This document shows positions 1 to 44,703 of a DNA stretch of 64,000 nucleotides, in pieces (the stretch's first letter is position 1; every line of letters begins with the position of its first letter). Position numbers and translations under genes: made by a program. The stretch covers positions 15,098-79,097 of the forward strand of contig JBGAIP010000004.1 in assembly GCA_044225395.1 (NCBI GenBank), written 5' to 3'. The notes beneath the pieces were generated by a model. The model searched no databases. It worked only from the letters and a program-made list of their open reading frames with translations, and was not told the origin of the DNA. The stretch is from Gammaproteobacteria bacterium. Its GTDB lineage: Bacteria; Pseudomonadota; Gammaproteobacteria; UBA6186; Azoamicaceae.

Positions 1-664
1 TCAAAACGAATGTTTGTTTATTTTTATCGCATCTTTGACACCTACGATAAAATGATAGCAAGTCTTGCAATATTGGCAGACACTAATAAGACATGGCGCC
101 CGAATCGCTTTCATCAGAAGATTTGGCAATCTGAAATCAGCAGAACCTATGAAGTAGTGAAGCTGATAGATTATAAGCCTAGGGTAGCAGAGCTGCAAAA
201 CCATCCTAACCCATTTGCGATGGTGGTGTTGGTACAATTGGCAGCTATGGAGACGCGACCCAATGATGAACAGAGATTACTAACTAAGTTAGAATTCTTT
301 AGATCGCTTTGTAAACGGGGGTGGCCACTCGAAAAATGTATGAGTGTTTATAAATTTTTAGATGCTGTATTAGGCCTGAATAAGAATTTTGAGGTAGAAT
401 ATATTCAACAAGTTAAACGAATCGAGAAGGAATATAATATGACATACGTCCTAACCGCAGAGCGTCACGGCATTGAGCAAGGAATACAAAAAGGCATATA
501 CCTAGGCGAGGCCGGCCTATTAATGAGACTGCTACCAAGCTAAGTTCAACACATTGCCCGAAACATACGTTGAAAAAATCAAAAATGCGGACTCTAACAC
601 TTTGGGCCGATGGGGCATCAATTTCGTTAAAGCAGAATCTTTAGACGACATTTTTGTAGCATAG
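1..664 (+). pseudogene. Rpn/YhgA-like recombination-promoting nuclease / putative transposase with DUF4351-type tail; 5' end outside window, frameshifted near 3' end
   Basis: Frame is open from nt 1 (..RMFVYFYRIFDTYDKMIASLAILAD..NPFA..TAERHGI..EAGLLMRLL) and stops at 543. The family-typical tail QAKFNTLPETYVEKIKNADSNTLGRWGINFVKAESLDDIFVA continues in another frame to TAG 662-664. Relative to the paralogous copy at 2563-2901 there is an extra C near 533 plus two short insertions. Confidence 0.55.
301..664 (+). repeat. Direct repeat copy A (3' part of the Rpn/DUF4351 gene)
   Basis: agatcgctttgtaaacggggg...gacgacatttttgtagc recurs at 2563-2901 at roughly 90% identity by eye, with small indels. 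Confidence 0.85.
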
Positions 665-753
665 GCCGCCGATATATTTTTATGTTATATGGCCTGCTCC
701 TCTGCGCTTATTCGTACGAGCGGGTTTTCTTTTCATATTCAAAACTGCAAAAG

Positions 754-1667
754 CTAACCCTGCAAATTTTTCTCAAGTAACACTAAGGCCTGGTGCCTTT
801 TTGTTTGTATCATGTTTTGAATATTATGAAGCTTCCATTTTACTGAGGGAAAATGCTGTATATTTTCTATAGAAATGAGATCCCATCGTGGCTCACCTTT
901 CTTGAAAGAAATAAGAAATTCTTTCTCTTGGTCAGTAAAAGCCGAAGAAATAAGCTTAAATATTTCTGCCCGTGTTTCCATCAAAATCTCACAGCTAATT
1001 TCTACCGAAGTCATACCATCAAATTGATTAGCATAAAGATTTTCAAATCCAAAAGGTTTGGTTTAATCAATTCTGATATTGGCCGTTTACTGCTTAGCAA
1101 ATAAACAATAAAAGCGTTATGTAATTCTCGGGTATACGAAAATTTCTTGAAATACATATGAGATCAAAGAAATCACGTGGTGCTGCCGATCAAGAGCGGC
1201 ACAAATTTTACCAGCAAATAAATCATTAATATCTAAACACAAGATATCGACATCGCGTTTAAAACGTTTTCTAGCCTCGGGAGCCAACCCTCGTATTATC
1301 GGTTTATAAACGGATCCGCGGACTACTAAGTTAATTTCTAACTTGACTTCTATAGTTTTTGATTGAATAAAAAGAGTACTTTCATAACCAACCGCGCTTT
1401 GCTTTTCTCGTGTTTTAAATCTAGTACATTAACCTTCTGAGATAAGCTCTTAATAAATTGACTAATGTCACCTAAGGCCGTCTCTCTTGTAGTAAGTGGT
1501 AAATAACAGAGATCTATATCAACTGACAAGCGCGGCAGATCAAACAAGAATAAATTAATGGCTGTGCCGCCTTTAATGGCAAATCGATTATCGCTTGAAA
1601 TCAATGGAATAATATCTATTAAAGTACTTACTTGTTCGAGATACTTAGAACTTAACGTCATTGTCAT
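754..1667 (-). pseudogene. AbiEii/AbiGii-family nucleotidyltransferase toxin (type IV TA), multiply frameshifted
   Basis: N-terminal piece 1350..1667 has KGGTAINLFLFDLPRLSVDIDLCYLP. The middle (1015-1349) reads EVKLEINLVVRGS...DINDLFAGKICAALDRQH in shifted frames with stops. The C-terminal piece is 754..1014. Confidence 0.7.
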
Positions 1668-1680
1668 CTTCCATCATATT

Positions 1681-2472
1681 CTATTGGTAAAAACAAATTA
1701 TATTTGCATGATATTTTCCATTTTTGGAAGCTATTTTAAGTAAAGAATTACCTATTTTACATTTTTTTTCATTTATTTTTAAGCGCCAAGCATGATTTTG
1801 CAAATCGCCAAGTAAAGCAGTAACCGTTTTGCTTTTTCTGAAGAGCATTTTGTTAATAACTTGCTTAAAACGTCTGGCCTTAAGGTCCCAAGCGATTCCA
1901 TAGAATTCGTGTTTCTTCAAAACTATAAGGCCATTGGGGTCAACTTAACAGCTCTAAGACTGCTCTTTCTCTAGAAGAAACCTGTACGTTGAGATTACCC
2001 ATAGCGATTTCATGTATTTCTACTTTTGAAGGTAACGCACTATTTTCGGTTATTCTTACGCGCTCCATCCATCGGTGATGAGCAAACCATTGGGGTATTA
2101 ATGTTCTTGGTGCAACCAAGAGATCAATTGTTTGATGTCCCATCGGTATATTATGCAGAACCCCTTGAAGCTCTAGCGCAGTTTTTCCACCAACATGGAT
2201 ATCCAGACCTAATTGAAATTGGGAAGTGCATGTAGGCCGCCATACCATTCTATTTTATCTTGGGGTTTAAAAACTGCACCCTGTCCAAATGGCTTAAACC
2301 AACCACCTGCTTTGTAGATGCTAACTAGTTGCCTTGAGAACCCCAGATTAGCCAAGCGTTTTGTAGTACACACCGTGCCTGTGGGCCAAGAATGTAGTAA
2401 ATTTTGTAATTTTACATGTTTTTGTCTATTCATACTTGACATTATAGAGGAAAAATACAAAAAAAAGAACAA
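1681..2472 (-). pseudogene. AbiEi-family antitoxin/transcriptional regulator, multiply frameshifted
   Basis: Pieces 2209..2472 (LHSWPTGTVCTTKRLANLGFSRQLVSIYKAGGWF), 1940..2248 and 1681..1920. An alternative frame in 1681-1920 reads PDVLSKLLTKCSSEKAKRLLLYLA, typical of the AbiEi_4 C-terminus. Confidence 0.65.
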
Positions 2473-2493
2473 AATTTGTAAATTTCCCTTAAA

Positions 2494-2901
2494 ATGTCTA
2501 GTATTGCTTTACATTTACAAGGAAATTTACAAACTTCAGTGCATGTTCGGTACAAACACGTAAGATCGCTTTGTAAACGGGGGTGGCCATTAGAAAAATG
2601 TATGAGTGTTTATAAATTTTTAGATGCTGCATTAGGCCTGAATAAGAATTTTGAGGTAGAATATATTCAACAAGTTAAACGAATCGAGAAGGAATATAAT
2701 ATGACATACGTCCTAACCGCAGAACGTCACGGAATACAAAAAGGTGAGGCCGGCTTATTAATGAGACTGCTACAAGCTAAGTTCGATACATTGCCAGAAA
2801 CATACGTTGAAAAAATCAAAAATGCTGACTCTAATACTTTAAGCCAATGGGGCATCAATTTCGTTAAGGCAGAATCTTTAGACGACATTTTTGTAGCGTA
2901 G
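2494..2901 (+). pseudogene. Stand-alone DUF4351-type C-terminal fragment of an Rpn-like gene (intact reading frame, no nuclease domain)
   Basis: Homology to the gene at 1-664 begins abruptly at 2563 (RSLCKRGWPLEKCMSVYKFLD...). The tail QAKFDTLPETYVEKIKNADSNTLSQWGINFVKAESLDDIFVA is in frame. Confidence 0.5.
2563..2901 (+). repeat. Direct repeat copy B (3' part of the Rpn/DUF4351 gene)
   Basis: Matches 301-664. Together the two copies bracket the AbiE module. Confidence 0.85.
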
Positions 2902-2939
2902 TGTTAATTCTTCTATATTATTTTAAAAATCACAACCCT

Positions 2940-3020
2940 AGGTTTACCTTTTTTGCCGAGTAAACGACCTTGCTGATATCGAAGATCAGCCAGCTTGGGG
3001 GCTAACCTTTGAATCCACAT
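2940..3020 (-). pseudogene. Possible remnant of a Fic-family (DUF4172 N-terminus) gene
   Basis: The minus strand reads MWIQRLAPKLADLRYQQGRLLGKKG, resembling the WIWQ..WP...L..L...R..QG.LLGK start of DUF4172-Fic proteins. There is no downstream ORF. Confidence 0.25.
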
Positions 3021-3764
3021 AGAAGCAGTAAAACAATTTTGCTGTTTGTATATCATATTAATCGCCACAGGTGATGCCAGCTCTATTCACCGCGAGCCTT
3101 TAGCCCTGGTATATAGCATGACGTATTCCATTACACATGTTGTCTATCAACCAATTGTTGTGAAGCAGTCTTACTATGCAGCGAAGCAAAACCATTAAGG
3201 ATAGATTACCATGATTATTGCTTATCTAAATAGGAAAAAACTTGGAAGATACGAGATTTCTGCCGAAAACCAAAATTTGCTTAAAGAAGCTATTTGGATC
3301 GATCTTATTTCGCCTTCAAGGAAGAGGAAGCATTAGTTGAGGCCTGTCTCAATTTAGACATTCCAACCCGAGAAGAGATGGTCGAAATTGAATTATCCAG
3401 CAGACTCTACAAAGAAGATGATACGCTCTTTATGACGGCAACCATGATTGCGCATTCTGATTCTCCCGAACCTAAACTTGATGCTATTGCTTTTGTTCTA
3501 ACAAAAAAACAGTTAATCACCGTTCGTTATATAGAACCTAAATCTTTTATTTTATTCATTTCACAATTGCAAAAACGTCATACAACACATCTTCATGCCA
3601 CAACCTTGCTAGTAGACTTGTTAGATATAAACGTTGATCGACTAGCCGATATATTAGAACTGATCGGGCATAGACTAGATGAGTCTTCAAAAGCAATTTT
3701 TAGACCTCAAGATGACAATGAAGTTAAACCGGATTATAAAGAATTCATGCAACAAATTGGTATC

Positions 3765-5060
3765 TGTAGTGCTCCCCAAATAAACCGGACCACCTAGGAC
3801 TGCTCTAACGAGATAGGAATAGGAGTAGGAATATGACTATTAACAACGGTGTAGAGGTTACTGAAATTATTTGTTCAACCAACAAGAGGAAACGATGGAC
3901 TGGCGTTGAAAAGCGACAGATCGTCAATGAAACATATCAGGCAGGAGTATCAGTCTCGTATATTGCCAGAAAAAACATGGTATACCTCTAGCCAATTATT
4001 CTTGGCGTAAACATTGGGGAGGGGGAGCATTGGCAGGCGTTGATTCAAGAAGAAAAGGTCGTACCGTTAAGTCGGGTTAAGGAACTTGAGAAACAGATCA
4101 AGAAGTTAGAGCGTATTCTGGGGAAAAAGACCCTGGAAGTCGAGATTTTAAAAGAGGCTATCACCATTGGTAGGGAAAAAACTGATCTCGCGGCAACCCT
4201 TATACGGAGTGGAAGATTTCGAATAAGAGGCATTGCAAGGCTTTAGGAATATCACGTTCTAATTTGTATGACAGAGAAACGAAGGATAAAGGTATGATTT
4301 CAACTGAAATTGAAAAAGACGAATCCTCTTAGAAGCGATAAAAAGAGCTGATAAAAATAAGGTAACTTATGGTTATCGCCGAGTAACAGCATTATTAAAT
4401 CATTGTTCTAATCAGTCAAAAATTGAATCACAAACGAGTATATCGTCTGATGAAATTGTCTGGATTATTATTGCCAAAACACGGTATCTCAAGACCTTCG
4501 CGAACTCATACTGGTCAAATTCAAACCTTAAGAAGCAATACGCGTTGGTGCAGTGATTATTTTACGATCCCTTGTTGGAATGGAGAAAGGGTTTATGTCG
4601 CTTTCAGCCTAGACACTTGCGACCGAGAGGCTATGCGATACGTAGCATCAACGAAGGGGATTAATGGCGAAGCTATCCGTGATTTGATGGTGGAAACGCT
4701 CGACTATCGCCTTAAAGGTATTATGCCGAATCGCAAAATCCAATGGTTATCCGATAATGGTCCAGCTTACGTTGCTCACGAAACAATAGAATTTGGACGA
4801 AGGATAGGTTTAGAGATTTGTACTACGCCACCTTATAGTCAGAGAGTAACGGTATGGCTGAGGCATTGGTTAAAACTTTGAAAAGGGATTACGTCTGGGT
4901 TTCTGATTTATCGGATGCTCAAATGGTAATGAGGCAATTGCCGGGATGGTTTGAGGATTACAATGAGAAGCTCCTCATAAAGCATTGCAAATGCGTTCCC
5001 CAGGCAGTATATTAAGCATAAATCGGCAAGCTAAGTGGTCCGGTTTATAGGGGCAACTCA
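3765..5060 (+). mobile_element. IS3-family (IS2-group-like) insertion sequence, decayed
   Basis: TG...CA termini. Imperfect terminal inverted repeats: tgtagtgctccccaaataaaccggaccac versus the reverse complement of gtggtccggtttataggggcaactca. 5-bp target duplication GTATC at 3760-3764 and 5061-5065. Excising the element restores the corA frame. Confidence 0.8.
3834..5035 (+). pseudogene. IS3-family transposase orfA/orfB with stops and frameshifts
   Basis: orfA begins MTINNGVEVTEII..KRKRWTGVEKRQIVNETYQAGVSVSYIARK, then hits a stop. The leucine-zipper part is KELEKQIKKLERILGKKTLEVEILKEA. orfB (4423..4881) has the DDE-region motifs SDNGPAY and PYS, then a frameshift before the expected PESNGMAEAFVKTLKRDY. 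Confidence 0.75.
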
Positions 5061-5614
5061 GTATCAATGGAGATCTTGATAAAAAACAGGAAAGCTTATT
5101 AACTTTTCAACGATTAGTCGCATTCTTTTTGCAGTCCATTGGCTCAAATGCCGATCAGGATACACAATCACGCTTAACAAGCATCAGTAAAGATATTGCT
5201 GCTTTAAGCGATCATGCCAATTTTGTTGCAAATAAAGTAACCTTCTTATTAAGTGCTACCTTAGGTATGGTTAACATTGAGCAAAATAATATTATTAAAA
5301 TAGTTTCTGTAGCGGCAGTGATCTTTCTACCACCAACGCTTATTGCGAGCATATATGGTATGAATTTTCATGTTATACCAGAACTGTCTTGGAAATATGG
5401 ATATGTGTTTTCTGTTGTATTGATGTTGCTCGCTGCTTGGTTACCTTACAAATATTTCAAACTCCGCAAATGGTTATAAAGGTAATATAAAATATTAATT
5501 ATTACCCTTTCTCTTAAACGTGTAACAAATCTGTTGACACCTTCAATTTAACAGTGTTAGGCTGTCGCCGTAATCAAATCTAACTATTTGCCCATAACTA
5601 AGGAGGACATAAAA

Positions 5615-6881: not shown

Positions 6882-9128
6882 ATGCCAATAACAGTTGTTA
6901 TAACATCAAAGTTTGTCAAGGAAAACAACGATACCAAGAAAGTTTTAGATCTTTATCGCGATGCATTAGAGCATAACGAAATTAATCCTCAAAGCGATGG
7001 TGGTGTTACATCTGTTGGGGATGCCGCATTGGGAGAAAGTAGAGTTGGGCCCGGTCTTTTGGACCCAATTACAGCCATAGTAGAAGATCGGCTTAATAGA
7101 CCTTTGGGAGCACACAGACAAATATTACCGGAAGTGAGAATTGAAGTAGAAACACCAGCAGAACTATTACTAAGGCATTATTTAAATTTCTTAAATGAAA
7201 AACTACTTGATGAGAAAATAGACATAGCCCAAACAAAAAGTGGTGCTACAATTACATCGGTACATGTTTTGATTCAACAACTATTATATAAATTAGCGGC
7301 TGCTGCATTAAGTAACAAATCTGATGATCAAAATGATGGTATAAAATTAAAAAGTGCAATGGATGCTTTTGTTGACAGGATCCATAATGAAGAAATTTTA
7401 ATAAAAAATGATAAACTAGGAAAGTTCGCGCTTGAGCTGTCAAACGAACATAATAATTGGGTTCGAGCAATTACAAACATGGTTAATATTGCTCATGTTG
7501 TTAATAGCAATAGAGCCAATATCTCTAATACTTTAAATCAGTTAAGGGATGCTGAAAAAATCATCCAACGACAAATAATTTTTTATATCAATGAAGAAAA
7601 AGCACCTTCTTCTCGACCACCTGAATGGTTAGATATTACTTTAGAAGCATGTGAAAAAAGCGTTCTTGATAATGGCCAACCAAAAAATCCATTGGCATTA
7701 AGTGTCTTAACGCAAAATTTAACGGTTAACAACGAAAGACTGAGGTTAAGTTTAACAATAAATGAAAGACAGAAAGCAATTGTCTCTCGTTTAAAAAGAG
7801 ACAAAAACTTAGAAGCTGCACTACCCATAGTGACACAATTATATGGACTGTTAAATCAAGTGCGCTATTTATGTGATCTGATGTCACGTTTAGATTCGTT
7901 AATGAATATTACTGGGTGGCTGCCGGTATTATCAGGCGTTATTGATTTTACAAAACTCAGTATTTTAATAAGTGATTTTGGCAAAAGTTGCAATGCAATA
8001 TTGTCGATTCCAGAACCCTTTAAAACAACAGAGCTGCAAAAGAAAGGGAGGGGTCGTGGCTTACATAAATACAAGGCGCTATCAGGAAATGCTATAGCTT
8101 ATCAATTAACTGAAAATAATTTACAAAGCCTAGATGACCACTTTTTAAAAGGGCAAATCCGGGATATGATCATTGGCGCAGTAACATCCTTAGTAGAATT
8201 ACAAGATCAATTACCCGTTGAACAGCGATTTGTTAATCTACAAAAATTAGGGCTAGAAAATAATAATATTCCTTTTTTTCCAGTACAACAACCTCTGCTT
8301 CCTAGAGCAAAAACTGTACCACAACCCAAACAACCACAACTTCCTTCTGCATCTCCTAAAAGAGAAAAACGATCGGAAGGAGCTGAAACCTTCACAACAA
8401 CAGAACTTTTACATATGTTCTTATTTGAAGGTTCTCAAGATCTTGGTGCTTTGGAAATATTTAAAAAATTGGGCGCTAATTTTCAAGCAGAATCTTCCGA
8501 CGCTGTTTGTTTGCGTTTACGTTCTAAAATTCTTGATTCAAATGAATATATTGCCCCTAACCCAGAAGATGCGCAAAAGGTATCTGGAGAAGATGAAAAC
8601 GAGCTCAAACTACTACAATTAATAACAAAAGCTAAAGCATCTTATACAGGATGTTCAGCATTACATTATGCTGCCATGGCGGGAAGCGATGAAGTATGTG
8701 GATGGTTAATAAAAGAAGGGATTCCCATTAATATAGCTGATAAAAGTGGAAAAACACCCCTTGATTGGGCAAGTGAAAAAAGAAAACGAACTGTCATTGA
8801 ATATTTAAAGTCTAAAGGTGCTAGAAGTGAAAAAGTACAAGATGCTTGTAATCGTTTAGTTGCATTTTTACTGAGACCTATTCCAGCAAATCCAGACATT
8901 GAAATGGTAAAAAACTGGATTCATGCAGGCGCTTATGCAACAGCTGATCAGCTTAATAATTTGTCAGACCAAAACCCGAATTTTAAAATGTGGTATGAAA
9001 TAAATTACCCTGGCGGATTGACTGAATATAGACCAGCGGGTAACCCACCAGCTGTAATATTCAGCGCTACACTTCCTCGGCCGTCTGTGACAGAACCCTC
9101 TTCAAAGACGTTGAAACCGAAAAAATAG
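6882..9128 (+). CDS. Large hypothetical protein with C-terminal ankyrin repeats (effector-like)
   Basis: 748-aa ORF. ANK consensus at ~8650-8822: CSALHYAAMAGSDEVCGWLIKEGIPINIADKSGKTPLDWASEKRKRTVIEYLKSKGA. Pro/Gln-rich linker PRAKTVPQPKQPQLPSASP. Confidence 0.75.
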   Translation: MPITVVITSKFVKENNDTKKVLDLYRDALEHNEINPQSDGGVTSVGDAALGESRVGPGLLDPITAIVEDRLNRPLGAHRQILPEVRIEVETPAELLLRHYLNFLNEKLLDEKIDIAQTKSGATITSVHVLIQQLLYKLAAAALSNKSDDQNDGIKLKSAMDAFVDRIHNEEILIKNDKLGKFALELSNEHNNWVRAITNMVNIAHVVNSNRANISNTLNQLRDAEKIIQRQIIFYINEEKAPSSRPPEWLDITLEACEKSVLDNGQPKNPLALSVLTQNLTVNNERLRLSLTINERQKAIVSRLKRDKNLEAALPIVTQLYGLLNQVRYLCDLMSRLDSLMNITGWLPVLSGVIDFTKLSILISDFGKSCNAILSIPEPFKTTELQKKGRGRGLHKYKALSGNAIAYQLTENNLQSLDDHFLKGQIRDMIIGAVTSLVELQDQLPVEQRFVNLQKLGLENNNIPFFPVQQPLLPRAKTVPQPKQPQLPSASPKREKRSEGAETFTTTELLHMFLFEGSQDLGALEIFKKLGANFQAESSDAVCLRLRSKILDSNEYIAPNPEDAQKVSGEDENELKLLQLITKAKASYTGCSALHYAAMAGSDEVCGWLIKEGIPINIADKSGKTPLDWASEKRKRTVIEYLKSKGARSEKVQDACNRLVAFLLRPIPANPDIEMVKNWIHAGAYATADQLNNLSDQNPNFKMWYEINYPGGLTEYRPAGNPPAVIFSATLPRPSVTEPSSKTLKPKK

Positions 9129-39006: not shown

Positions 39007-39753
39007 ATGATAGACAACCTAATCAAAACGTATACCCCATCAAGCGATTTGCTTAAAAATCGCGTTATTCTTGTTACAGGTGCCTCTCGGGGTATAGGTC
39101 GCTCTGCTGCTAAAACCTTTGCGACTTATGGCGCTACGGTAATTTTACTGGCTCGTACCGTCAAAAAATTAGAAACGCTCTATGATGAGATTGTAGAGGC
39201 AGGACACCCACTGCCCGCAATTTACCCCTTTAATTTGGCAAATGCGACTCCAAAGGACTATGAGGACTTAAGACAAAACATTGAATCGCATTTTGGCAAA
39301 CTGGATGGTCTTTTGCACAATGCAGCAGAACTCGGTACTTTAACACCCATAGAACACTATCCTATTGAACAATGGGCCCATGTGTTGCAGGTAAATTTAA
39401 ACAGCGCATTTTTATTAACCCAAGCTACTTTACCGCTCCTAAAGCGCTCAGAAAATGCCAGTATTGTATTTACAACCGCCGATGAAGGATTAAAAGGTAA
39501 AGCGTATTGGGGTGCGTATGGGGTCAGTAAATTTGCCTTAAATGGTCTGATGCAAACGTTGGCACAAGAATTAGAAACGAACACTAATATACGAGTGAAT
39601 AGCATTAATCCTAACAAAGTTCGTACGACACTCCGAGCGAGTGTCTATCCGGCTGAAAATATAAAAGACTTGCCTTTGCCTGAAGCCATCATGACGCACT
39701 ATCTTTATTTAATGGGGCCCGATAGTGGTGACATTCGAGGACAAATTTTTTAG
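39007..39753 (+). CDS. SDR-family oxidoreductase (YciK-like)
   Basis: VTGASRGIGRSAA is the Rossmann TGxxxGIG motif. The active site is YGVSK. Confidence 0.85.
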   Translation: MIDNLIKTYTPSSDLLKNRVILVTGASRGIGRSAAKTFATYGATVILLARTVKKLETLYDEIVEAGHPLPAIYPFNLANATPKDYEDLRQNIESHFGKLDGLLHNAAELGTLTPIEHYPIEQWAHVLQVNLNSAFLLTQATLPLLKRSENASIVFTTADEGLKGKAYWGAYGVSKFALNGLMQTLAQELETNTNIRVNSINPNKVRTTLRASVYPAENIKDLPLPEAIMTHYLYLMGPDSGDIRGQIF

Positions 39754-42023
39754 TTATCTCTTTGCTTTTTTAATAATGCACCTGCTTCAGTACCAGAAAC
39801 CGGTTTACTTAGAAAAAAGCCTTGAACTTCACTAATAGATAATGCGTTTAAAATATCCAATTGTTCTTGTGTTTCCACGCCTTCTGCTACCACTCTTATA
39901 TTTAACGATTTGGCAATCATTAAAATAGCTTCAACTATTGCCCTGCTATCTTTATTCACACAGAGATCTCGAATAAAAGATTGATCTATTTTAATTTTGT
40001 CGACAGGAAATTGCTTGATATAACTTAAACTGGAATACCCCGTGCCAAAATCATCTATATTAACGTTAATATTCATTGCGTTTAATTTTTGAATTTTCAT
40101 AAATACGCCATTTATGTCTGATAAAATGCTTGATTCTGTTATTTCTAAATCCAAATATTTAGAATCAAGCCCGGTCTCTTCTAACACTTTCTTAACAATT
40201 TCTACCATATCATTTTGGTTAAATTGAAAACCCGACATATTAACTGACATACGAATAGGGGGAAAACCCATATCTTGCCAAGCCTTGGCTTGCGCACAAG
40301 CCGTTTTTAATACCCAATATCCAATGGGTATAATAAGACCTGTGCTCTCGGCTATTGGAATAAAAGTGCTCGGGCCAATTAACCCTAATTTTGGGTGTTT
40401 CCAACGGACCAATGCTTCCATAGAAACAATTGTATTTTTACTGATATTAAATAATGGCTGATAGTCAATGTAGAGTTCATTTTTTTCAATTGCATAACGT
40501 AAATCGTGTTCAAACTCTAAACGTGGCAACCCCAACTGTTCTAATTTTTCTGTATAAAATTCAATGCTACCTTTTCCTCTATTCTTTGCATGGTACATAG
40601 CCATGTCTGCATGCCTCATTAAAATGGATGCATTATCACCATCTTTGGGATACAAGCTAATACCCGTACTTAAGCCAATCGTAAAATGATGGTCTTCAAT
40701 TTGGTAGGGTTCTAGAAAAATTTTGTAAAGACGTTCAATAATAATATTTAACTCTGATGCATTTTTTGTGTTTAGGCTTAATACAATAACAAATTCATCG
40801 CCCCCCAATCGTGCAACTGAGCTTCCATCCACAATTCTCGCAATGGTGTCTGTTTCTCGTAGGCATCTCGTTAAACGTTGCCCAAAAAGCTTCAACAAGA
40901 CATCCCCTGTTTCATGGCCAAAGCTATCGTTCACCAATTTAAATGAGTCTAAATCAAGCAATAACACAGCAACGCTTGTGTTGTTTCGTTTTGCATTGGC
41001 AATAGCACGCTGAATACGATCAACCAATAATGTTCTATTTGGCAACCCTGTTAGAAAATCAAAACTCGCTTGTTTGGCTAATTCAAGTTCTAACCTTTTT
41101 TTCTGGCTAATGTCGCGAAAGCTATATACGATACCGACTTTTTCACTTTTATTGTAATGTGGTTTAAGATACATTTCAACATATTCATTTGTTTTCAATC
41201 TTAACTCACGAAAAGTTTCCCATAACTTTTCATCCTCTATTTGTTCAATACTAAAGGGTATTTTTTCATTTTTCTCAATTTTATCTTCAATAAACTTGAT
41301 AACCTCGCTTACCTTGTGCTGATTTATTAAAAACTCGGGAACCCCCCACATTTTTAAGAAATTTTGATTACAAATTGATATTCCCTGATTTTTATCTATC
41401 ACAACAACCCCATCTGCCGTTGATTCAAGTGTTGCTTTAGTTAAAGAAAATGCATTTTCTAATTCTTCTGTTTTTTTATCAACCATATCATGAAGCTCAT
41501 TCATCTTTAAATTTGCTTGTTTATTTAATACCCATTTTTTTGTGAGTGCTAACGCCATTAATCGCACTTCTACGATATCAAAGGGTTTTTTAAGAATTAA
41601 TAAGCGATCACTATGCCCCAAGCGTTTGAATATATCTTCCCAGGAATAATCTGAATAGGCCGTACAAATAACGGTTTGAATATCGGGATCAATTTTCCAA
41701 ATTTGTTCTATAGTCTCTAACCCATCTAAACCGGGAGGCATCCGCATATCTATAAACGCCAAGGCATAAGGCAACCCTTTTGCAAGAGCGGCGTCCACAT
41801 ATTCTATTCCCTTTTGACCCTGGTTAGCACATTCCACTACAAAAACAGGTCGTTCCGCTTGTTTACTATCTCCTTCAACCGATTTTCCTAAAAATAGATT
41901 TTCTAATTTTTCCATTTCATTTTTGGACTGATCAGCATCTAGTATTAGTGACTTTTTAAAATCTTCATGTATCGCTTCATTATCATCAATAATGAGGATG
42001 CGATTGTTAAACAGTGTATTCAT
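39750..42023 (-). CDS. Response regulator with REC-PAS-GGDEF-EAL domains (bifunctional c-di-GMP enzyme)
   Basis: ILIIDDNEAIHEDF..DMRMPPGLDG (REC), RLGGDEFVIV (GGDEF), EALVRW/DDFGTGYSS/EGVETQEQ/QGFFLSKP (EAL). ATGA overlap with the kinase stop (42020-42023). Confidence 0.9.
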   Translation of the reverse strand: MNTLFNNRILIIDDNEAIHEDFKKSLILDADQSKNEMEKLENLFLGKSVEGDSKQAERPVFVVECANQGQKGIEYVDAALAKGLPYALAFIDMRMPPGLDGLETIEQIWKIDPDIQTVICTAYSDYSWEDIFKRLGHSDRLLILKKPFDIVEVRLMALALTKKWVLNKQANLKMNELHDMVDKKTEELENAFSLTKATLESTADGVVVIDKNQGISICNQNFLKMWGVPEFLINQHKVSEVIKFIEDKIEKNEKIPFSIEQIEDEKLWETFRELRLKTNEYVEMYLKPHYNKSEKVGIVYSFRDISQKKRLELELAKQASFDFLTGLPNRTLLVDRIQRAIANAKRNNTSVAVLLLDLDSFKLVNDSFGHETGDVLLKLFGQRLTRCLRETDTIARIVDGSSVARLGGDEFVIVLSLNTKNASELNIIIERLYKIFLEPYQIEDHHFTIGLSTGISLYPKDGDNASILMRHADMAMYHAKNRGKGSIEFYTEKLEQLGLPRLEFEHDLRYAIEKNELYIDYQPLFNISKNTIVSMEALVRWKHPKLGLIGPSTFIPIAESTGLIIPIGYWVLKTACAQAKAWQDMGFPPIRMSVNMSGFQFNQNDMVEIVKKVLEETGLDSKYLDLEITESSILSDINGVFMKIQKLNAMNINVNIDDFGTGYSSLSYIKQFPVDKIKIDQSFIRDLCVNKDSRAIVEAILMIAKSLNIRVVAEGVETQEQLDILNALSISEVQGFFLSKPVSGTEAGALLKKQRDN

Positions 42024-43456
42024 ACCATATCTTCCTTTCTTCGCTTTGGTTTTTTTGGTAATAACAAGGTAAAAGTACAACCTTTGCCTTCTCCTTCACT
42101 TTCGACTGTTAATAACCCCCCGAGCTCATACGCACAAATTGCACTTGAATGAAGTCCAAACCCATGTCCACTTTTTTTGGTTGTAAACCCATGAGAAAAT
42201 ATCTTCTCTAAATTTTCTTTTCTAACCCCAACGCCATTGTCAATTACTTTAATACAAACAGAGGCCGTATCTTTTTCATCAACCGTAACTTTTATACGCT
42301 TATTTTTATTTTCCACCGTATCTTCCATAACAGCCTCGTAAGCATTTTTTACAAGATTAACTAAAATTTGCAAAAATTTAACCCTATCCGTTATAAAACG
42401 AAGTTGGTCGCTGCATTCAAAAACAAAATTAATATTTCCATTGGCAAAGTTGTCCTTATGCAACTTAATAGATTCTTGTATTATTTCACACGCATGCGTT
42501 TCTTCATAAGTACCGACTGTCCCACTTAATACTTGTTGAGCGCTAATAATATCTTTAATGTTTTTTATGTTGCCATTGATTTCGTTTAACTCCTGAAGAA
42601 ACATAGCTTTCCTTGTTTCCCAAAAATCAGGCAATTTTTCAAGATAGATAACAAGATTTTTACCTATAGAATCTTCTGTAACAAACCTTTCGAAATCTCG
42701 TTGATGTTCTTTTATTAACTTTGAAATTCTCCCTAACCCAGATAATTTTGTTTCATTTAATTTATCCATTAATGCATTGGAGGATACATTAACACTGTTC
42801 ATAATATTGCCAATATTATGCAAAACACTTGTCGCAACTTCAGCCATTCCTGCGCGTCTGGCTGCTATAACCAATTGTTTATTTAAATTTTGTAGATTCT
42901 CATCAGCTTTTTTCTTTGCATCAATACTCACTATCGTGCCACTAAGCCCCACGCACTTTCCTGAGGCATTATCAAATTTAGGTTTTCCTATGCTATGTAC
43001 CCAATGTGGCTGGTTGTCTATTATTATTCTAAAATCATGCTCAAACTCTTTTTCTTGCTCCAACCCCAATTTAATAAAACTTTCATATTGCTTCTTATCT
43101 TCGGGATAGACGTATGAAAATGCCTCATCAAAACTGGGATACCCTAAACTCAAATCTCTGTTAAATATTTTAAATGTCTCTTCTGACCAATATAATAGTT
43201 TTTTATCCTTAGAAAAATACCAACTACCTAATTGAGCAATTTTTTGTGATTCTTGTAGTCGATCAAACAAAGATTTCATTTCTTTAGAGGCAATGTCTTG
43301 GGAACGCTCACCTAAAATACGTTCTCTGTCCGCTTCTTTATAAGATTTATCAACACGCTCCAAAAAACTATGCCAAAAAACAATGTTTTCTGGACAATTC
43401 TCTTCTGATAAAGACAACTTTTTTAATTGTCGCACCAAAAGAGAATGAAGTTCCAT
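42020..43456 (-). CDS. Cytoplasmic PAS-domain sensor histidine kinase with atypical H-box
   Basis: PAS_3-like region (GSWYFSKDKKLLYWSEETFKIF). The H-box reads ATSVLHNIGNIMNSVNVSS rather than classical HE.RTPL. HATPase motifs are NLVKNAYEA, DNGVG and GHGFGL. Confidence 0.88.
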   Translation of the reverse strand: MELHSLLVRQLKKLSLSEENCPENIVFWHSFLERVDKSYKEADRERILGERSQDIASKEMKSLFDRLQESQKIAQLGSWYFSKDKKLLYWSEETFKIFNRDLSLGYPSFDEAFSYVYPEDKKQYESFIKLGLEQEKEFEHDFRIIIDNQPHWVHSIGKPKFDNASGKCVGLSGTIVSIDAKKKADENLQNLNKQLVIAARRAGMAEVATSVLHNIGNIMNSVNVSSNALMDKLNETKLSGLGRISKLIKEHQRDFERFVTEDSIGKNLVIYLEKLPDFWETRKAMFLQELNEINGNIKNIKDIISAQQVLSGTVGTYEETHACEIIQESIKLHKDNFANGNINFVFECSDQLRFITDRVKFLQILVNLVKNAYEAVMEDTVENKNKRIKVTVDEKDTASVCIKVIDNGVGVRKENLEKIFSHGFTTKKSGHGFGLHSSAICAYELGGLLTVESEGEGKGCTFTLLLPKKPKRRKEDMV

Positions 43457-43461
43457 CCGTA

Positions 43462-44592
43462 TTACTCTTCAGAAAAAGTTGTTAAAGTCATCGTCTGATT
43501 ATGCAATTCACAATTGCCGGAAGAAAATGGCGAAATTTCGCCATAGGAATAGAATCCTACTTGTTGGGTACCTTGAGGAAGCGATTCTAAAACGGTTTGT
43601 GTTTCTTCTTCTGTACGCTCACCCATTAACAGTCTTCGCCCAACACAACTAATAGCAACCGACAAAACCGGTGCTGTTGCATTCTTTGCGGCAGAAAGCG
43701 CTGCTTCACCTGCACCAGTCACTAATCTATCAAAATTAGCACGCATTAACTGCGCACGATACCCCTCTGGTACATCTCCAGCAAAAGTTAATGATTGATT
43801 TTTCTCGTCTATCGCCAAAATAGTGCGAACAACTTCACTCGCATTTTTTTTGTCTTCATGAATCATTAATGGAAATAATAATCCACTGGCAGGTAATTCA
43901 GAAGCCCGATCGCCTAAATATTCTTTATACAACTCTAAAGCAGGCCTGCCATCCAGTTCATATAATATGTTTGCCTTTGAGCGTGTAATACGTCGTTCTG
44001 GCCCAAAAGAATCCCAACCCCCTTTGGAACCATGGCCAATCTTAAAGTTTTTACCGTAAAATCCAACCGCCACAATTTTATTTGTATAAAATTTACCACC
44101 TACAATTACCCAGGTTTTTTTAAATCGTTCACCATCCCCCGCTAAACCGCCTGTTATGACAACATCTTTGGGTAGATCTGAATTCATTCCTTTTACCAGT
44201 TCGCTCCCATTAACTTTTAAACCATCCGATAATACAAAAATGCTTTTTAATCCATCCTGCATTAACGTTTTTAATAGGGTTTCACCCGCTTTATGCGATT
44301 CATTGACATCAGAGATTTCAGCCGAAGTAACTTTTATTTTACCAGCATCAAATTTCATGATTGCAACTGATAAACTTTTATCATTAATAGCTGTATCGAA
44401 AATTTCACCTGCACTGGAACAACCTATAATCTTGGATGTAGGAAAAGCCGCAACTAGCTCGTTGATTGGCTCTGGGTGATCGATAAATTCAGGTGCACCA
44501 AATATCAAAACAAGTGTTTGCTCAGAATCTAATTGTGGGAAAGGGTTTGACCACCCTTTGTTTTTTTGAAACATCATGGTTTGTAATTTCAT
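43462..44592 (-). CDS. FIST-domain sensory protein (FIST_N + FIST_C)
   Basis: IIGCSSAGEI.., GFYSYGEISPF...CELHNQTMTLTTFSE are typical of FIST_C. 5 nt upstream of the kinase start. Confidence 0.85.
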   Translation of the reverse strand: MKLQTMMFQKNKGWSNPFPQLDSEQTLVLIFGAPEFIDHPEPINELVAAFPTSKIIGCSSAGEIFDTAINDKSLSVAIMKFDAGKIKVTSAEISDVNESHKAGETLLKTLMQDGLKSIFVLSDGLKVNGSELVKGMNSDLPKDVVITGGLAGDGERFKKTWVIVGGKFYTNKIVAVGFYGKNFKIGHGSKGGWDSFGPERRITRSKANILYELDGRPALELYKEYLGDRASELPASGLLFPLMIHEDKKNASEVVRTILAIDEKNQSLTFAGDVPEGYRAQLMRANFDRLVTGAGEAALSAAKNATAPVLSVAISCVGRRLLMGERTEEETQTVLESLPQGTQQVGFYSYGEISPFSSGNCELHNQTMTLTTFSEE

Positions 44593-44703
44593 AGTCTACC
44601 CCCTAAATTGCCTAAAAAATAATTAGTCGACTAGCTATTCAAGTAGTATAGTCTATATTAAGGCTACATTTTGGGTAGACCAATAATCAAACATAAGTTA
44701 TTT

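What the first reader, a model, noticed from the sequence alone, without database searches (positions are those of the whole stretch)
39750..44592. FIST sensor / atypical-H-box histidine kinase / REC-PAS-GGDEF-EAL three-gene operon
Three genes are tightly linked: a 5-nt gap, then an ATGA overlap at 42020-42023.
- a soluble FIST_N/FIST_C protein
- a cytoplasmic PAS kinase whose phospho-acceptor region reads SVLHNIGNIMNSV instead of the classical H-box
- a response regulator with intact GGDEF (RLGGDEF) and EAL domains

From memory, L. pneumophila has an atypical kinase/bifunctional DGC-PDE pair of this type (Lpl0330/Lpl0329). If that is correct, the kinase-regulator pair has precedent.

The input is the open question. 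FIST domains have essentially no experimentally defined ligands. Here a stand-alone FIST protein is positioned as the first gene, implying that it is the signal receptor for the kinase.
Basis: partly seen in the sequence, partly recalled or inferred. Interest (0 to 1): 0.65.

Follow-up and report, generated by a model that had tools for sequence, protein, structure and literature searches.

The report
NosP-type nitric-oxide sensor, kinase, c-di-GMP enzyme
The three genes are real and intact, but they are a diverged copy of the already characterised Legionella nosP-nahK-narR operon (a haem/nitric-oxide sensor protein, its kinase, and a c-di-GMP-making and -degrading enzyme), here in an uncultured gammaproteobacterium, so the "unknown FIST input" is largely answered.

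Summary
On the minus strand lie a FIST_N/FIST_C protein (44592-43462), a soluble PAS kinase with no HisKA match (43456-42020) and a REC-PAS-GGDEF-EAL regulator (42023-39750). They are separated by a 5-nt gap and an ATGA overlap.

All three align full-length and in the same order with L. pneumophila lpg0279-0278-0277 (NosP-NahK-NarR), at 58%, 37% and 43% identity. Kinase His213 aligns with the mapped phospho-histidine His210 of Lpl0330. Regulator Asp92 aligns with Asp87.

In Legionella, papers report that this operon is co-transcribed. They also report that the FIST protein binds NO and controls the kinase, and that phosphorylation shifts NarR from making to degrading c-di-GMP.

The host is not a Legionella. 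Its ParC is 65% identical to the nearest named genus, Endozoicomonas.

One addition from this work: the first ~75 residues of the kinase (helix-loop-long helix) begin the gene directly after FIST in 70 of 79 metagenomic FIST loci, whatever the output domain. This is a candidate FIST-docking module.

Verdict: new member of a known kind, low-to-moderate interest.

The parts
44645..44651 (-). Possible -10 element CTATACT (sigma-S-like) in the 111-nt region upstream of the FIST gene
   Evidence: Read from the sequence. The block ATATAGACTATACTA is conserved in the sister locus L087. The Legionella operon is reported to be RpoS-dependent (10.1101/604611). Weak evidence: the consensus promoter scan found no more sites than shuffles.
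44599..44604 (-). Shine-Dalgarno-like AGGGGG, 6 nt before the FIST ATG
   Evidence: Read from the sequence.
43462..44592 (-). Stand-alone FIST_N + FIST_C protein, 376 aa; NosP homologue and presumed haem/NO sensor
   Evidence: Pfam FIST 2e-52 and FIST_C 2e-36. 58% identical over full length to L. pneumophila NosP. Residues invariant in 62 relatives include C58, C316, C361, H364 and M283. AF2 model has mean pLDDT 77, and its best PDB fold matches are the FIST protein FBXO22.
43232..43456 (-). Kinase residues 1-75: short helix, loop, long helix; candidate FIST-docking module
   Evidence: AF2 helices 5-13 and 25-74, pLDDT 81-91. An HMM of this module finds it at the start of the gene directly after FIST in 70 of 79 metagenomic loci, and only next to FIST in the control DNA.
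42932..43195 (-). Kinase PAS_3 domain (residues 88-175)
   Evidence: Pfam PAS_3 1.9e-6, above the cutoff. AF2 gives a PAS-like sheet at 76-177.
42782..42850 (-). Atypical H-box GMAEVATSVLHNIGNIMNSVNVS; His213 codon at 42818-42820
   Evidence: No HisKA hit. His213 aligns with His210 of Lpl0330/NahK, the mapped phospho-acceptor (10.64898/2026.02.27.708494). G203, A208, L212, H213, N214, G216, N217, N220 and S221 are invariant in alignment A2. LHN[IV]GN is present in 118 of 120 homologues.
42050..42388 (-). Kinase HATPase_c catalytic domain (residues 357-469) with N, G1 and G2 boxes
   Evidence: Pfam HATPase_c 1.2e-19. Invariant N367, N371, D406, G408, G410, G430, G432 and G434.
42020..43456 (-). 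Whole kinase gene, 478 aa; NahK/Lpl0330-type soluble histidine kinase
41565..42002 (-). Regulator receiver (REC) domain; Asp92 codon at 41748-41750
   Evidence: Pfam Response_reg above cutoff. D13, D14, D92 and K146 are invariant in A1. D92 aligns with D87 of the Legionella protein.
41088..41438 (-). Regulator PAS_7 domain
   Evidence: Pfam PAS_7 2.1e-8.
40572..41069 (-). Regulator GGDEF domain: RETD (40848-40859), 8-aa insertion ARIVDGSS (40818-40841), GGDEF (40791-40805)
   Evidence: Pfam GGDEF 1.8e-45. The motifs were verified by translation. Only the sister L087 shares the insertion.
39801..40505 (-). Regulator EAL domain with EALVR, N595, ExTE, DDFGTGYSS, K678, EGVE and QG
   Evidence: Pfam EAL 1.9e-72. 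The catalytic residues are invariant in A1.
39750..42023 (-). Whole regulator gene, 757 aa; NarR/Lpl0329-type bifunctional c-di-GMP enzyme. Its TAA overlaps the TAG of the convergent SDR gene.

Best explanation
This is a NosP-NahK-NarR-type signalling operon. The soluble FIST protein is proposed to bind haem and report NO (or haem or redox state) to the kinase by direct contact, most likely with the kinase's N-terminal helix-loop-helix module and adjoining PAS domain. The kinase autophosphorylates on His213 and passes the phosphate to Asp92 of the regulator. Phosphorylation then shifts the regulator from c-di-GMP synthesis (GGDEF) towards hydrolysis (EAL), which lowers c-di-GMP.

Shown here: the gene anatomy, homology to the Legionella system, intact catalytic motifs, and conserved FIST-partner linkage.

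Taken from published work on Legionella: haem/NO binding, control of the kinase, phosphotransfer, and the effect on the enzyme.

Inferred: that the same holds in this organism, the sign of the response, and the docking site.
For: - Full-length, collinear matches to L. pneumophila lpg0279, lpg0278 and lpg0277 at 58%, 37% and 43% identity.
- The source names the Legionella kinase cluster 'NosP-associated histidine kinase NahK'.
- His213 aligns with the mapped His210, and Asp92 with Asp87.
- All kinase, REC, GGDEF and EAL catalytic residues are intact.
- The FIST-kinase-regulator order recurs in L002, L082/L083, L085, L086 and L087; L005 shows FIST-kinase before its contig ends.
- The same kinase core and regulator family are also wired to other proposed gas sensors: an H-NOX gene in L003 and an MHYT domain fused in P0185/L088, whose downstream gene is 53% identical to this regulator.
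- The sister genome carries H-NOX and MHYT c-di-GMP genes right next to the operon.
- Published biochemistry and genetics, as summarised in PMC11237717, PMC8846402, PMC8738867, PMC12570481 and 10.1101/604611.
- Docking-module statistics: 70 of 79 loci, with the module confined to FIST loci in the controls.
Against: - Nothing biochemical is known for this organism.
- The kinase is only 37% identical to the Legionella one.
- The FIST protein scores 82 bits against NCBIfam's NosP equivalog, whose cutoff is 450. However, the characterised Legionella NosP scores only 72, so the model is narrow rather than the protein aberrant.
- The haem ligands of NosP are not defined, and no bacterial FIST structure exists.
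- The sign of regulation differs between species. NO-NosP is said to activate the kinase in Legionella but to inhibit it in Pseudomonas and V. cholerae. B. pseudomallei NosP also inhibits its kinase, in an NO-dependent manner.
- Legionella genetics show Lpg0279 acting as a negative regulator.
- An 8-residue insertion between RxxD and GGDEF might alter cyclase regulation.
- The primary paper (Fischer et al. 2019) could not be read.
Confidence: 0.72

Rival explanations
1. The FIST protein reports haem availability or redox state rather than NO. Haem loading itself switches the kinase.
For: B. thailandensis NosP is described as haem-responsive (Fu et al. 2023, cited in PMC13259868 and PMC12570481). 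Haem binding to the FIST domains of V. cholerae CdpA inhibits its phosphodiesterase (PMC8846402 and PMC13654575). The review PMC8846402 calls NO binding by FIST-FIST_C only suggested.
Against: NO-dependent kinase control is reported for the Legionella orthologue, and NO-receptor mutants respond less to NO donors. The same kinase/regulator family sits next to H-NOX and MHYT modules.
Confidence: 0.13
2. The FIST protein is a ligand-independent inhibitor of the kinase, and its abundance (starvation or stationary-phase induction) sets kinase activity. The kinase PAS_3 domain is the real sensor.
For: In Legionella, constitutive lpg0279 expression phenocopies loss of the two-component system. The operon is RpoS- and starvation-induced, and Lpg0279 is abundant in mature infectious forms. 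A CTATACT -10-like element is conserved upstream here. The kinase keeps its own PAS domain.
Against: FIST is far more conserved (58-67% identity across classes) than its kinase (31-41%), with many invariant Cys, His and Met residues. This suggests a cofactor site rather than a mere plug. NO binding is reported in vitro.
Confidence: 0.1
3. The FIST protein binds a small organic metabolite such as an amino acid, as proposed when the FIST domain was first described, and the reported haem binding arises only from reconstitution in vitro.
For: After FBXO22, the next fold matches are chorismatase and cyanuric acid hydrolase, which are small-molecule enzymes of the 'Toblerone' fold. CdpA shows only weak NO effects in vitro, and a missing cofactor was suspected (PMC8851539).
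Against: Several groups report haem-bound NosP from different species. The fold matches are weak (TM 0.3-0.35) and the model is poor in FIST_C.
Confidence: 0.05

Closest known systems
L. pneumophila NosP-NahK-NarR (lpg0279-lpg0278-lpg0277; in strain Lens the kinase and regulator are Lpl0330/Lpl0329)
   Same: Same three genes in the same order and on one strand. Same domain architectures, same atypical H-box with the phospho-histidine aligned, same REC aspartate, and intact GGDEF and EAL motifs. Identities are 58%, 37% and 43% over full length.
   Different: - The organism differs: an uncultured gammaproteobacterium.
- The flanks differ: rluB/scpAB/trpS upstream here, against a LysR gene in Legionella.
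- The FIST-kinase gap is 5 nt instead of 22 bp.
- The second conserved histidine of the DHp domain (His296 in Lpl0330) is Asn here.
- There is an 8-residue insertion before GGDEF.
P. aeruginosa NosP-NahK (PA1975-PA1976) to HptB; P. putida PP_2663-PedS1
   Same: A stand-alone FIST protein is co-cistronic with, and controls, a soluble kinase. Partner kinases of this classical hybrid type in metagenomes carry the same N-terminal module.
   Different: There the kinase is a hybrid with classical HisKA, REC and a phosphorelay to HptB/RsmA, not an atypical H-box kinase with a dedicated c-di-GMP regulator. NO-NosP inhibits that kinase.
B. pseudomallei NosR-NosP-NosK
   Same: A FIST protein binds the adjacent kinase (two-hybrid) and controls its autophosphorylation in an NO-dependent way. 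The regulator has a c-di-GMP-type output.
   Different: The output is a degenerate HD-GYP domain, the gene order differs, and the kinase is a different type.
H-NOX systems (S. oneidensis/V. cholerae HnoX-HnoK-HnoB; L. pneumophila Hnox1-Lpg1057)
   Same: The logic is the same: a stand-alone haem NO sensor controls a kinase or cyclase that sets c-di-GMP. In locus L003 an H-NOX gene sits where FIST sits here, upstream of the same kinase core and regulator family.
   Different: The sensor fold is unrelated (HNOB, not FIST). No H-NOX gene lies in this window.
V. cholerae CdpA (FIST/NosP domain fused to GGDEF-EAL)
   Same: FIST domains are coupled to c-di-GMP turnover, and haem and NO effects are reported.
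   Different: It is a single polypeptide with no kinase or phosphotransfer step.
Human FBXO22 (FIST-domain F-box protein; PDB 8ua3, 8s7e)
   Same: It is the best structural match to the model of the FIST protein (E 8e-10, TM about 0.5).
   Different: It is a eukaryotic ubiquitin-ligase substrate receptor with 11% identity. No signalling homology is implied.

Membership tests
NosP (NO-sensing FIST proteins) | Stand-alone protein of about 370-400 aa made of FIST_N plus FIST_C | tested here: met
   Pfam FIST residues 26-216 and FIST_C residues 218-355 in a 376-aa protein.
NosP (NO-sensing FIST proteins) | Close sequence relationship to an experimentally characterised NosP | tested here: met
   58% identity and 74% positives over 385 columns with L. 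pneumophila Lpg0279-type NosP.
NosP (NO-sensing FIST proteins) | Passes NCBIfam equivalog NF041558 'NosP' (cutoff 450 bits) | tested here: not met
   The score is 82 bits. The characterised Legionella NosP scores 72, and other clade members 64-98. The model therefore covers a different, narrow NosP clade, and this failure does not separate the window protein from Legionella NosP.
NosP (NO-sensing FIST proteins) | Encoded directly next to a signalling partner (kinase or c-di-GMP enzyme) | tested here: met
   A 5-nt gap to the kinase. The same holds in relatives.
NosP (NO-sensing FIST proteins) | Binds haem b and forms a ferrous-NO complex | not testable with these tools
   Only candidate ligands can be named: invariant C58, C316, C361, H364 and M283, and near-invariant H187.
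NosP (NO-sensing FIST proteins) | Changes partner-kinase autophosphorylation in an NO-dependent way | not testable with these tools
   Reported for the Legionella, Pseudomonas, Vibrio and Burkholderia proteins.
Lpl0330/NahK-type atypical histidine kinases | No match to HisKA-type profiles; conserved H-box ...E(V/I)A..(V/I)LHN(I/V)GN..NS | tested here: met
   No HisKA hit. The motif is invariant in A2 and A6. LHN[IV]GN is present in 118 of 120 homologues.
Lpl0330/NahK-type atypical histidine kinases | Histidine aligned with the mapped phospho-acceptor His210 of Lpl0330 | tested here: met
   His213 aligns with His210. The His210 mapping is quoted in 10.64898/2026.02.27.708494.
Lpl0330/NahK-type atypical histidine kinases | Intact HATPase_c with N, G1 and G2 boxes; soluble protein | tested here: met
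Lpl0330/NahK-type atypical histidine kinases | Autophosphorylation and phosphotransfer to the adjacent regulator | not testable with these tools
   Needs a radiolabelled-ATP assay.
Lpl0329/NarR-type bifunctional c-di-GMP regulators | REC-PAS-GGDEF-EAL architecture with the receiver Asp aligned to Asp87 | tested here: met
   Pfam. 43% identity over 751 columns, with D92 aligned to D87.
Lpl0329/NarR-type bifunctional c-di-GMP regulators | Intact GGDEF active site and EAL catalytic residues | tested here: met
   G407-F411, E536-L538, N595, E627/E630, D657/D658, K678, E714 and Q734 are invariant in A1. One lineage-specific 8-aa insertion lies between RxxD and GGDEF.
Lpl0329/NarR-type bifunctional c-di-GMP regulators | Both cyclase and phosphodiesterase activity, shifted by phosphorylation | not testable with these tools
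   Reported for Lpl0329/Lpg0277.

The most novel reading that the evidence does not exclude
The first ~75 residues of the kinase (short helix, loop, long helix running into the PAS domain) may be a portable, family-wide docking module for NosP-type FIST proteins. It heads whatever gene follows FIST: classical HisKA hybrid kinases, atypical H-box kinases, GGDEF-EAL enzymes, and even a SpoIIE phosphatase. It is missing from the same kinase core when that core is wired to H-NOX, MHYT or REC inputs. If this holds, it defines the so far undescribed NosP-partner interface and gives a sequence rule for finding NosP targets. I found no description of it in the papers searched, but that search was limited.
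Probability: 0.45. Interest if true: 0.45.

Novelty: new member of a known kind. Interest (0 to 1): 0.25.

Why it matters
The operon itself adds little. It shows that the Legionella-type NosP-NahK-NarR circuit, with its atypical H-box kinase, exists outside Legionella in an uncultured, probably host-associated gammaproteobacterium. It also shows that public annotation misses it: the NCBIfam NosP model rejects even the characterised Legionella protein.

The comparative by-product is more useful.
- FIST proteins of this clade are much better conserved than their partners.
- They almost always sit directly before a gene that opens with one specific ~75-residue helical module.

This offers a concrete, testable hypothesis for how NosP talks to its very different partners. 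No structure or mapped interface turned up in the PDB searches or the papers read here.

Tried and rejected
- **Primary papers.** Fischer et al. 2019 (PMC6812680) and Fu et al. 2023 (PMC10478957) are not held. The biochemical statements rest on later papers that cite them.
- **Genome-collection scan with the kinase.** Only about eight loci were true relatives; the rest matched only the ATPase domain. L. pneumophila was not recovered this way. It was reached through the protein search and the contig look-up.
- **PDB sequence search with the FIST protein.** No hit.
- **Rfam and tRNA scans of the window.** Nothing found.
- **Promoter scan.** 15 sites against 18.6 expected, so no support for any sigma-70 promoter.
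- **Terminator scan.** 8 sites against 4.1 +/- 2.1 expected, with none at the operon end.
- **Natural FIST-kinase fusions.** I checked whether the long FIST hits (P0003, P0004, P0006, P0052) were such fusions. They are tandem FIST-FIST proteins.
- **First regular expressions for the N-terminal module.** They were too strict and undercounted. I replaced them with an HMM.
- **Is the window from Legionella?** Rejected. ParC's best named match is Endozoicomonas at 65%, and no Legionella appears in the top 120 hits.

Full report
**1. What is in the sequence**

Three minus-strand genes occupy 44592-39750.
- Gene 1 (44592-43462, 376 aa) is FIST_N plus FIST_C (Pfam 2e-52 and 2e-36).
- Gene 2 (43456-42020, 478 aa) has PAS_3 and HATPase_c but matches no HisKA-type profile.
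- Gene 3 (757 aa from the ATG at 42023, ending at 39750) is Response_reg, PAS_7, GGDEF and EAL.

TAA is followed by 5 nt and then ATG, and there is an ATGA overlap at 42023-42020. A Shine-Dalgarno-like AGGGGG lies 6 nt before the first ATG. None of the three proteins has a membrane-like segment.

Downstream, the regulator's stop codon overlaps the stop codon of a convergent short-chain dehydrogenase gene. Upstream on the same strand are rluB-like, scpB, scpA and trpS genes.

**2. Identity with a known system**

A protein search with the kinase recovered a cluster of 502 L. pneumophila sequences that NCBI and UniRef name "NosP-associated histidine kinase NahK". It aligns over the full length at 37% identity. 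The contig that carries it shows FIST (388 aa), kinase (471 aa) and REC-PAS-GGDEF-EAL (740 aa) in the same order, preceded by a LysR gene. This is the lpg0280-lpg0277 arrangement (10.1101/604611).
- The window FIST protein is 58% identical to that FIST protein.
- The regulator is 43% identical to the Legionella regulator.
- Kinase His213 aligns with His210, the histidine experimentally mapped as phospho-acceptor in Lpl0330.
- Regulator Asp92 aligns with Asp87.
- The H-box core (G-M-x-[ED]-x-A-x-x-[VIM]-L-H-N-x-G-N-x-x-N-S) is invariant at nine positions across eleven diverse relatives. LHN[IV]GN occurs in 118 of 120 homologues.
- A second histidine that is conserved in many members (His296 of Lpl0330) is Asn here. 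This fits His213 as the acceptor.
- The N, G1 and G2 boxes of the kinase are intact, as are DD/D/K of the receiver, GGDEF, and the EAL catalytic set.

**3. What is published about that system**

- lpg0279, lpg0278 and lpg0277 are co-transcribed. They are RpoS-dependent and induced by nutrient limitation. Constitutive lpg0279 counteracts the two-component system (10.1101/604611).
- Three later papers summarise the in-vitro work of Fischer et al. 2019. Purified NosP binds NO. NO-NosP stimulates NahK autophosphorylation. Phospho-NarR has lower cyclase and higher phosphodiesterase activity (PMC11237717, PMC8846402, PMC8738867).
- Marker-less nosP mutants are impaired in phagocytes and have altered biofilms.
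- Related NosP systems are described in P. aeruginosa, V. cholerae, S. oneidensis, B. thailandensis and B. pseudomallei.

I could not read the primary Legionella paper itself.

**4. Which organism**

The window is not Legionella.
- ParC has 86-91% matches only to unnamed metagenome bins ("Gammaproteobacteria bacterium").
- Its best named matches are Endozoicomonas at about 65%.
- No Legionella is among the top 120 hits.

G+C content is about 38%.

A sister contig (kinase 85% identical) has the same parC...trpS-scpA-scpB-rluB-FIST-kinase-regulator order.

**5.

FIST-kinase-regulator recurs in several places:
- a Legionella sp. MAG (L002);
- L. pneumophila (L082, L083);
- two other genomes (L085, L086);
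- the sister (L087);
- a Coxiellaceae contig (L005) that shows FIST-kinase before it ends.

In a Noviherbaspirillum genome, FIST is followed directly by a PAS-GAF-PAS-GGDEF-EAL protein with no kinase.

The same kinase core and regulator family also occur with other proposed gas sensors.
- In L003 an H-NOX gene precedes a hybrid kinase fused to the atypical core, followed by the regulator.
- In P0185/L088 an MHYT membrane domain is fused to the core (53% identical). The next gene there is 53% identical to this regulator.
- In the sister genome, three extra genes lie between the regulator and the dehydrogenase gene: GGDEF-EAL, H-NOX and MHYT-GGDEF-EAL. The window has no H-NOX homologue and no remnant of these genes.

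These contexts independently point to gas or NO sensing.

**6. A conserved partner module**

The N-terminus of the kinase (MELHSLLVRQLKKLSLSEENCPENIVFWHSFLERVDKSYKEADRERILGERSQDIASKEM...) is shared by every FIST-adjacent partner I saw, including the Noviherbaspirillum GGDEF-EAL protein. It is absent when the same kinase core is fused to REC, hybrid-kinase or MHYT modules.

I scanned metagenome contigs with the FIST alignment, which gave 80 loci with FIST at 47-64% identity. I then built an HMM of the ~75-residue module and searched all six frames.
- The module starts between -60 and +500 nt after the FIST stop, on the same strand, in 70 of 79 evaluable loci.
- Two more loci have it nearby.
- Only 73 hits occur in 522,607 bp in total.
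- In 801,736 bp of control loci chosen by kinase-core similarity, it occurs only in L002 and L005, the only two with FIST.
- In the 64-kb window it occurs once, at the kinase start.

Caveat: 49 of the 50 seed sequences come from the tested loci, so sensitivity is inflated. Specificity is not affected.

I ran Pfam on 42 complete partners plus the window kinase.

| Pfam domain | Proteins with it (of 43) |
|---|---|
| HATPase_c | 31 |
| classical HisKA | 27 |
| REC | 23 |
| Hpt | 15 |
| GGDEF | 10 |
| EAL | 9 |
| SpoIIE | 1 |

The atypical-H-box partner seen here is a minority. By tblastn it appears at clear identity (36-41%) only in L089, L092 and L098; weaker core matches (25-31%) occur in several other loci.

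The AlphaFold2 model of the kinase has mean pLDDT 81. It shows:
- the module as helix 5-13, a loop, and a long helix 25-74 that runs into the PAS domain (76-177);
- then a long helix 179-235 that carries His213;
- an inserted helical pair;
- a second long helix 263-310;
- the ATPase domain.

I propose the module as the FIST-docking element. This is inference from co-occurrence only.

**7. The FIST protein itself**

It belongs to a very conserved clade: 59-67% identity to hundreds of proteins from beta- and gammaproteobacteria. Its kinase is only 31-41% identical to relatives outside the sister lineage. In 62 relatives the invariant residues include C58, C316, C361, H364 and M283, and H187 is near-invariant. 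These are candidate haem ligands, but none is established.

NCBIfam's NosP equivalog scores it at 82 bits against a cutoff of 450. It scores the characterised Legionella NosP at only 72 bits, so that model describes another NosP clade.

No PDB entry matches by sequence. The AlphaFold2 model (mean pLDDT 77) is confident for FIST_N. It is poor for residues 193-283 of FIST_C, even though many invariant residues lie there. By fold, the best PDB matches are human FBXO22 (E about 1e-9), followed by weak matches to chorismatase and cyanuric acid hydrolase.

**8. Mechanism and rivals**

The best-supported reading is the NosP-NahK-NarR mechanism given above. The direction of the NO effect cannot be predicted, because it differs between species. 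The rivals are:
- haem or redox sensing rather than NO;
- a ligand-independent, abundance-controlled inhibitor, with the PAS domain as the sensor;
- a small-metabolite ligand.

**9. Verdict**

The claimed novelty is out of date. This is a new, diverged member of a known system in an uncultured gammaproteobacterium. The conserved N-terminal partner module is the one point that might be new.

Noticed in passing
L087:11722-16344, compared with window 39750-39753: The sister genome (kinase 85% identical) carries three extra genes between the regulator and the dehydrogenase gene: GGDEF-EAL, an H-NOX (HNOB) protein and MHYT-GGDEF-EAL. This forms a small NO/gas-sensing c-di-GMP island next to nosP. 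The window lacks them entirely. Here the two flanking genes overlap at their stop codons, and no H-NOX homologue exists anywhere in the 64 kb.
   Followed up: partly
window 40818-40841 (-): An 8-residue insertion (ARIVDGSS) lies between the RxxD motif (RETD) and GGDEF of the regulator. Only the sister locus shares it; six other relatives lack it. It moves the putative inhibitory site from 5 to 13 residues before GGDEF. The effect is unknown.
   Followed up: partly
window 43232-43456 (-), and loci L089-L168: The ~75-residue N-terminal helical module of the kinase heads the gene directly after FIST in 70 of 79 metagenomic loci, irrespective of output domain (HisKA kinases, GGDEF-EAL, SpoIIE). 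In control DNA it is confined to the two loci that carry FIST.
   Followed up: yes
NCBIfam NF041558, against window 43462-44592 and L082:4812-5978: NCBI's 'NosP' equivalog model (cutoff 450 bits) gives only 72 bits to the experimentally characterised L. pneumophila NosP and 82 bits to the window protein. The whole Legionella-type clade is therefore left unnamed by that model.
   Followed up: yes
window 43462-44592 (-), residues 193-283: The FIST_C stretch with many invariant residues (G191, G192, W193, F196, G197, R200, L238, L239, P241, F270-D273, M283) is where AlphaFold2 is least confident (pLDDT below 50). It may be a cofactor-dependent or mobile region.
   Followed up: partly
window 43527-43544 (-): A perfect 7-bp hairpin (ATGGCGAAATTTCGCCAT) followed by TTTCTTCC lies inside the 3' end of the FIST gene, about 65 nt before its stop. 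It could lower read-through into the kinase gene, or it could be chance (8 terminator-like sites against 4.1 +/- 2.1 expected).
   Followed up: no
window 30007-31950 (+) and 36874-37788 (-): Two more c-di-GMP genes lie close by: a GGDEF-EAL protein with an unassigned 200-residue N-terminus, and an EAL-only protein next to an AI-2E family transporter.
   Followed up: no
window 23642-33105 (+): A possible small biosynthetic cluster: fatty acyl-AMP ligase, aromatic amino acid lyase, thiamine-diphosphate enzyme, KAS III-like condensing enzyme and an O-methyltransferase. A FadL-type outer-membrane protein and an aminotransferase follow.
   Followed up: no
window 6882-9128 (+) and 35790-36896 (+): There are eukaryote-like repeat proteins: an ankyrin-repeat protein (with a weak match to the Dot/Icm effector family AnkY/LegA9) and a leucine-rich-repeat protein. 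They hint at a host-associated lifestyle.
   Followed up: no
window 550-5500: This stretch has only short ORFs. One is a 167-aa CorA fragment that covers profile positions 18-149 of 292, which suggests decayed genes.
   Followed up: no
proteins P0003, P0004, P0006, P0052: Myxococcota contigs encode tandem FIST-FIST polyproteins joined by Pro/Ala-rich linkers, 52-56% identical to the window FIST protein.
   Followed up: no
window 44593-44703 (-) and L087:6755-6864: The region upstream of the FIST gene is about 80% identical between the window and its sister, including ATATAGACTATACTA with a sigma-S-like CTATACT. This fits the RpoS dependence reported in Legionella, but only two sequences were compared.
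   Followed up: partly
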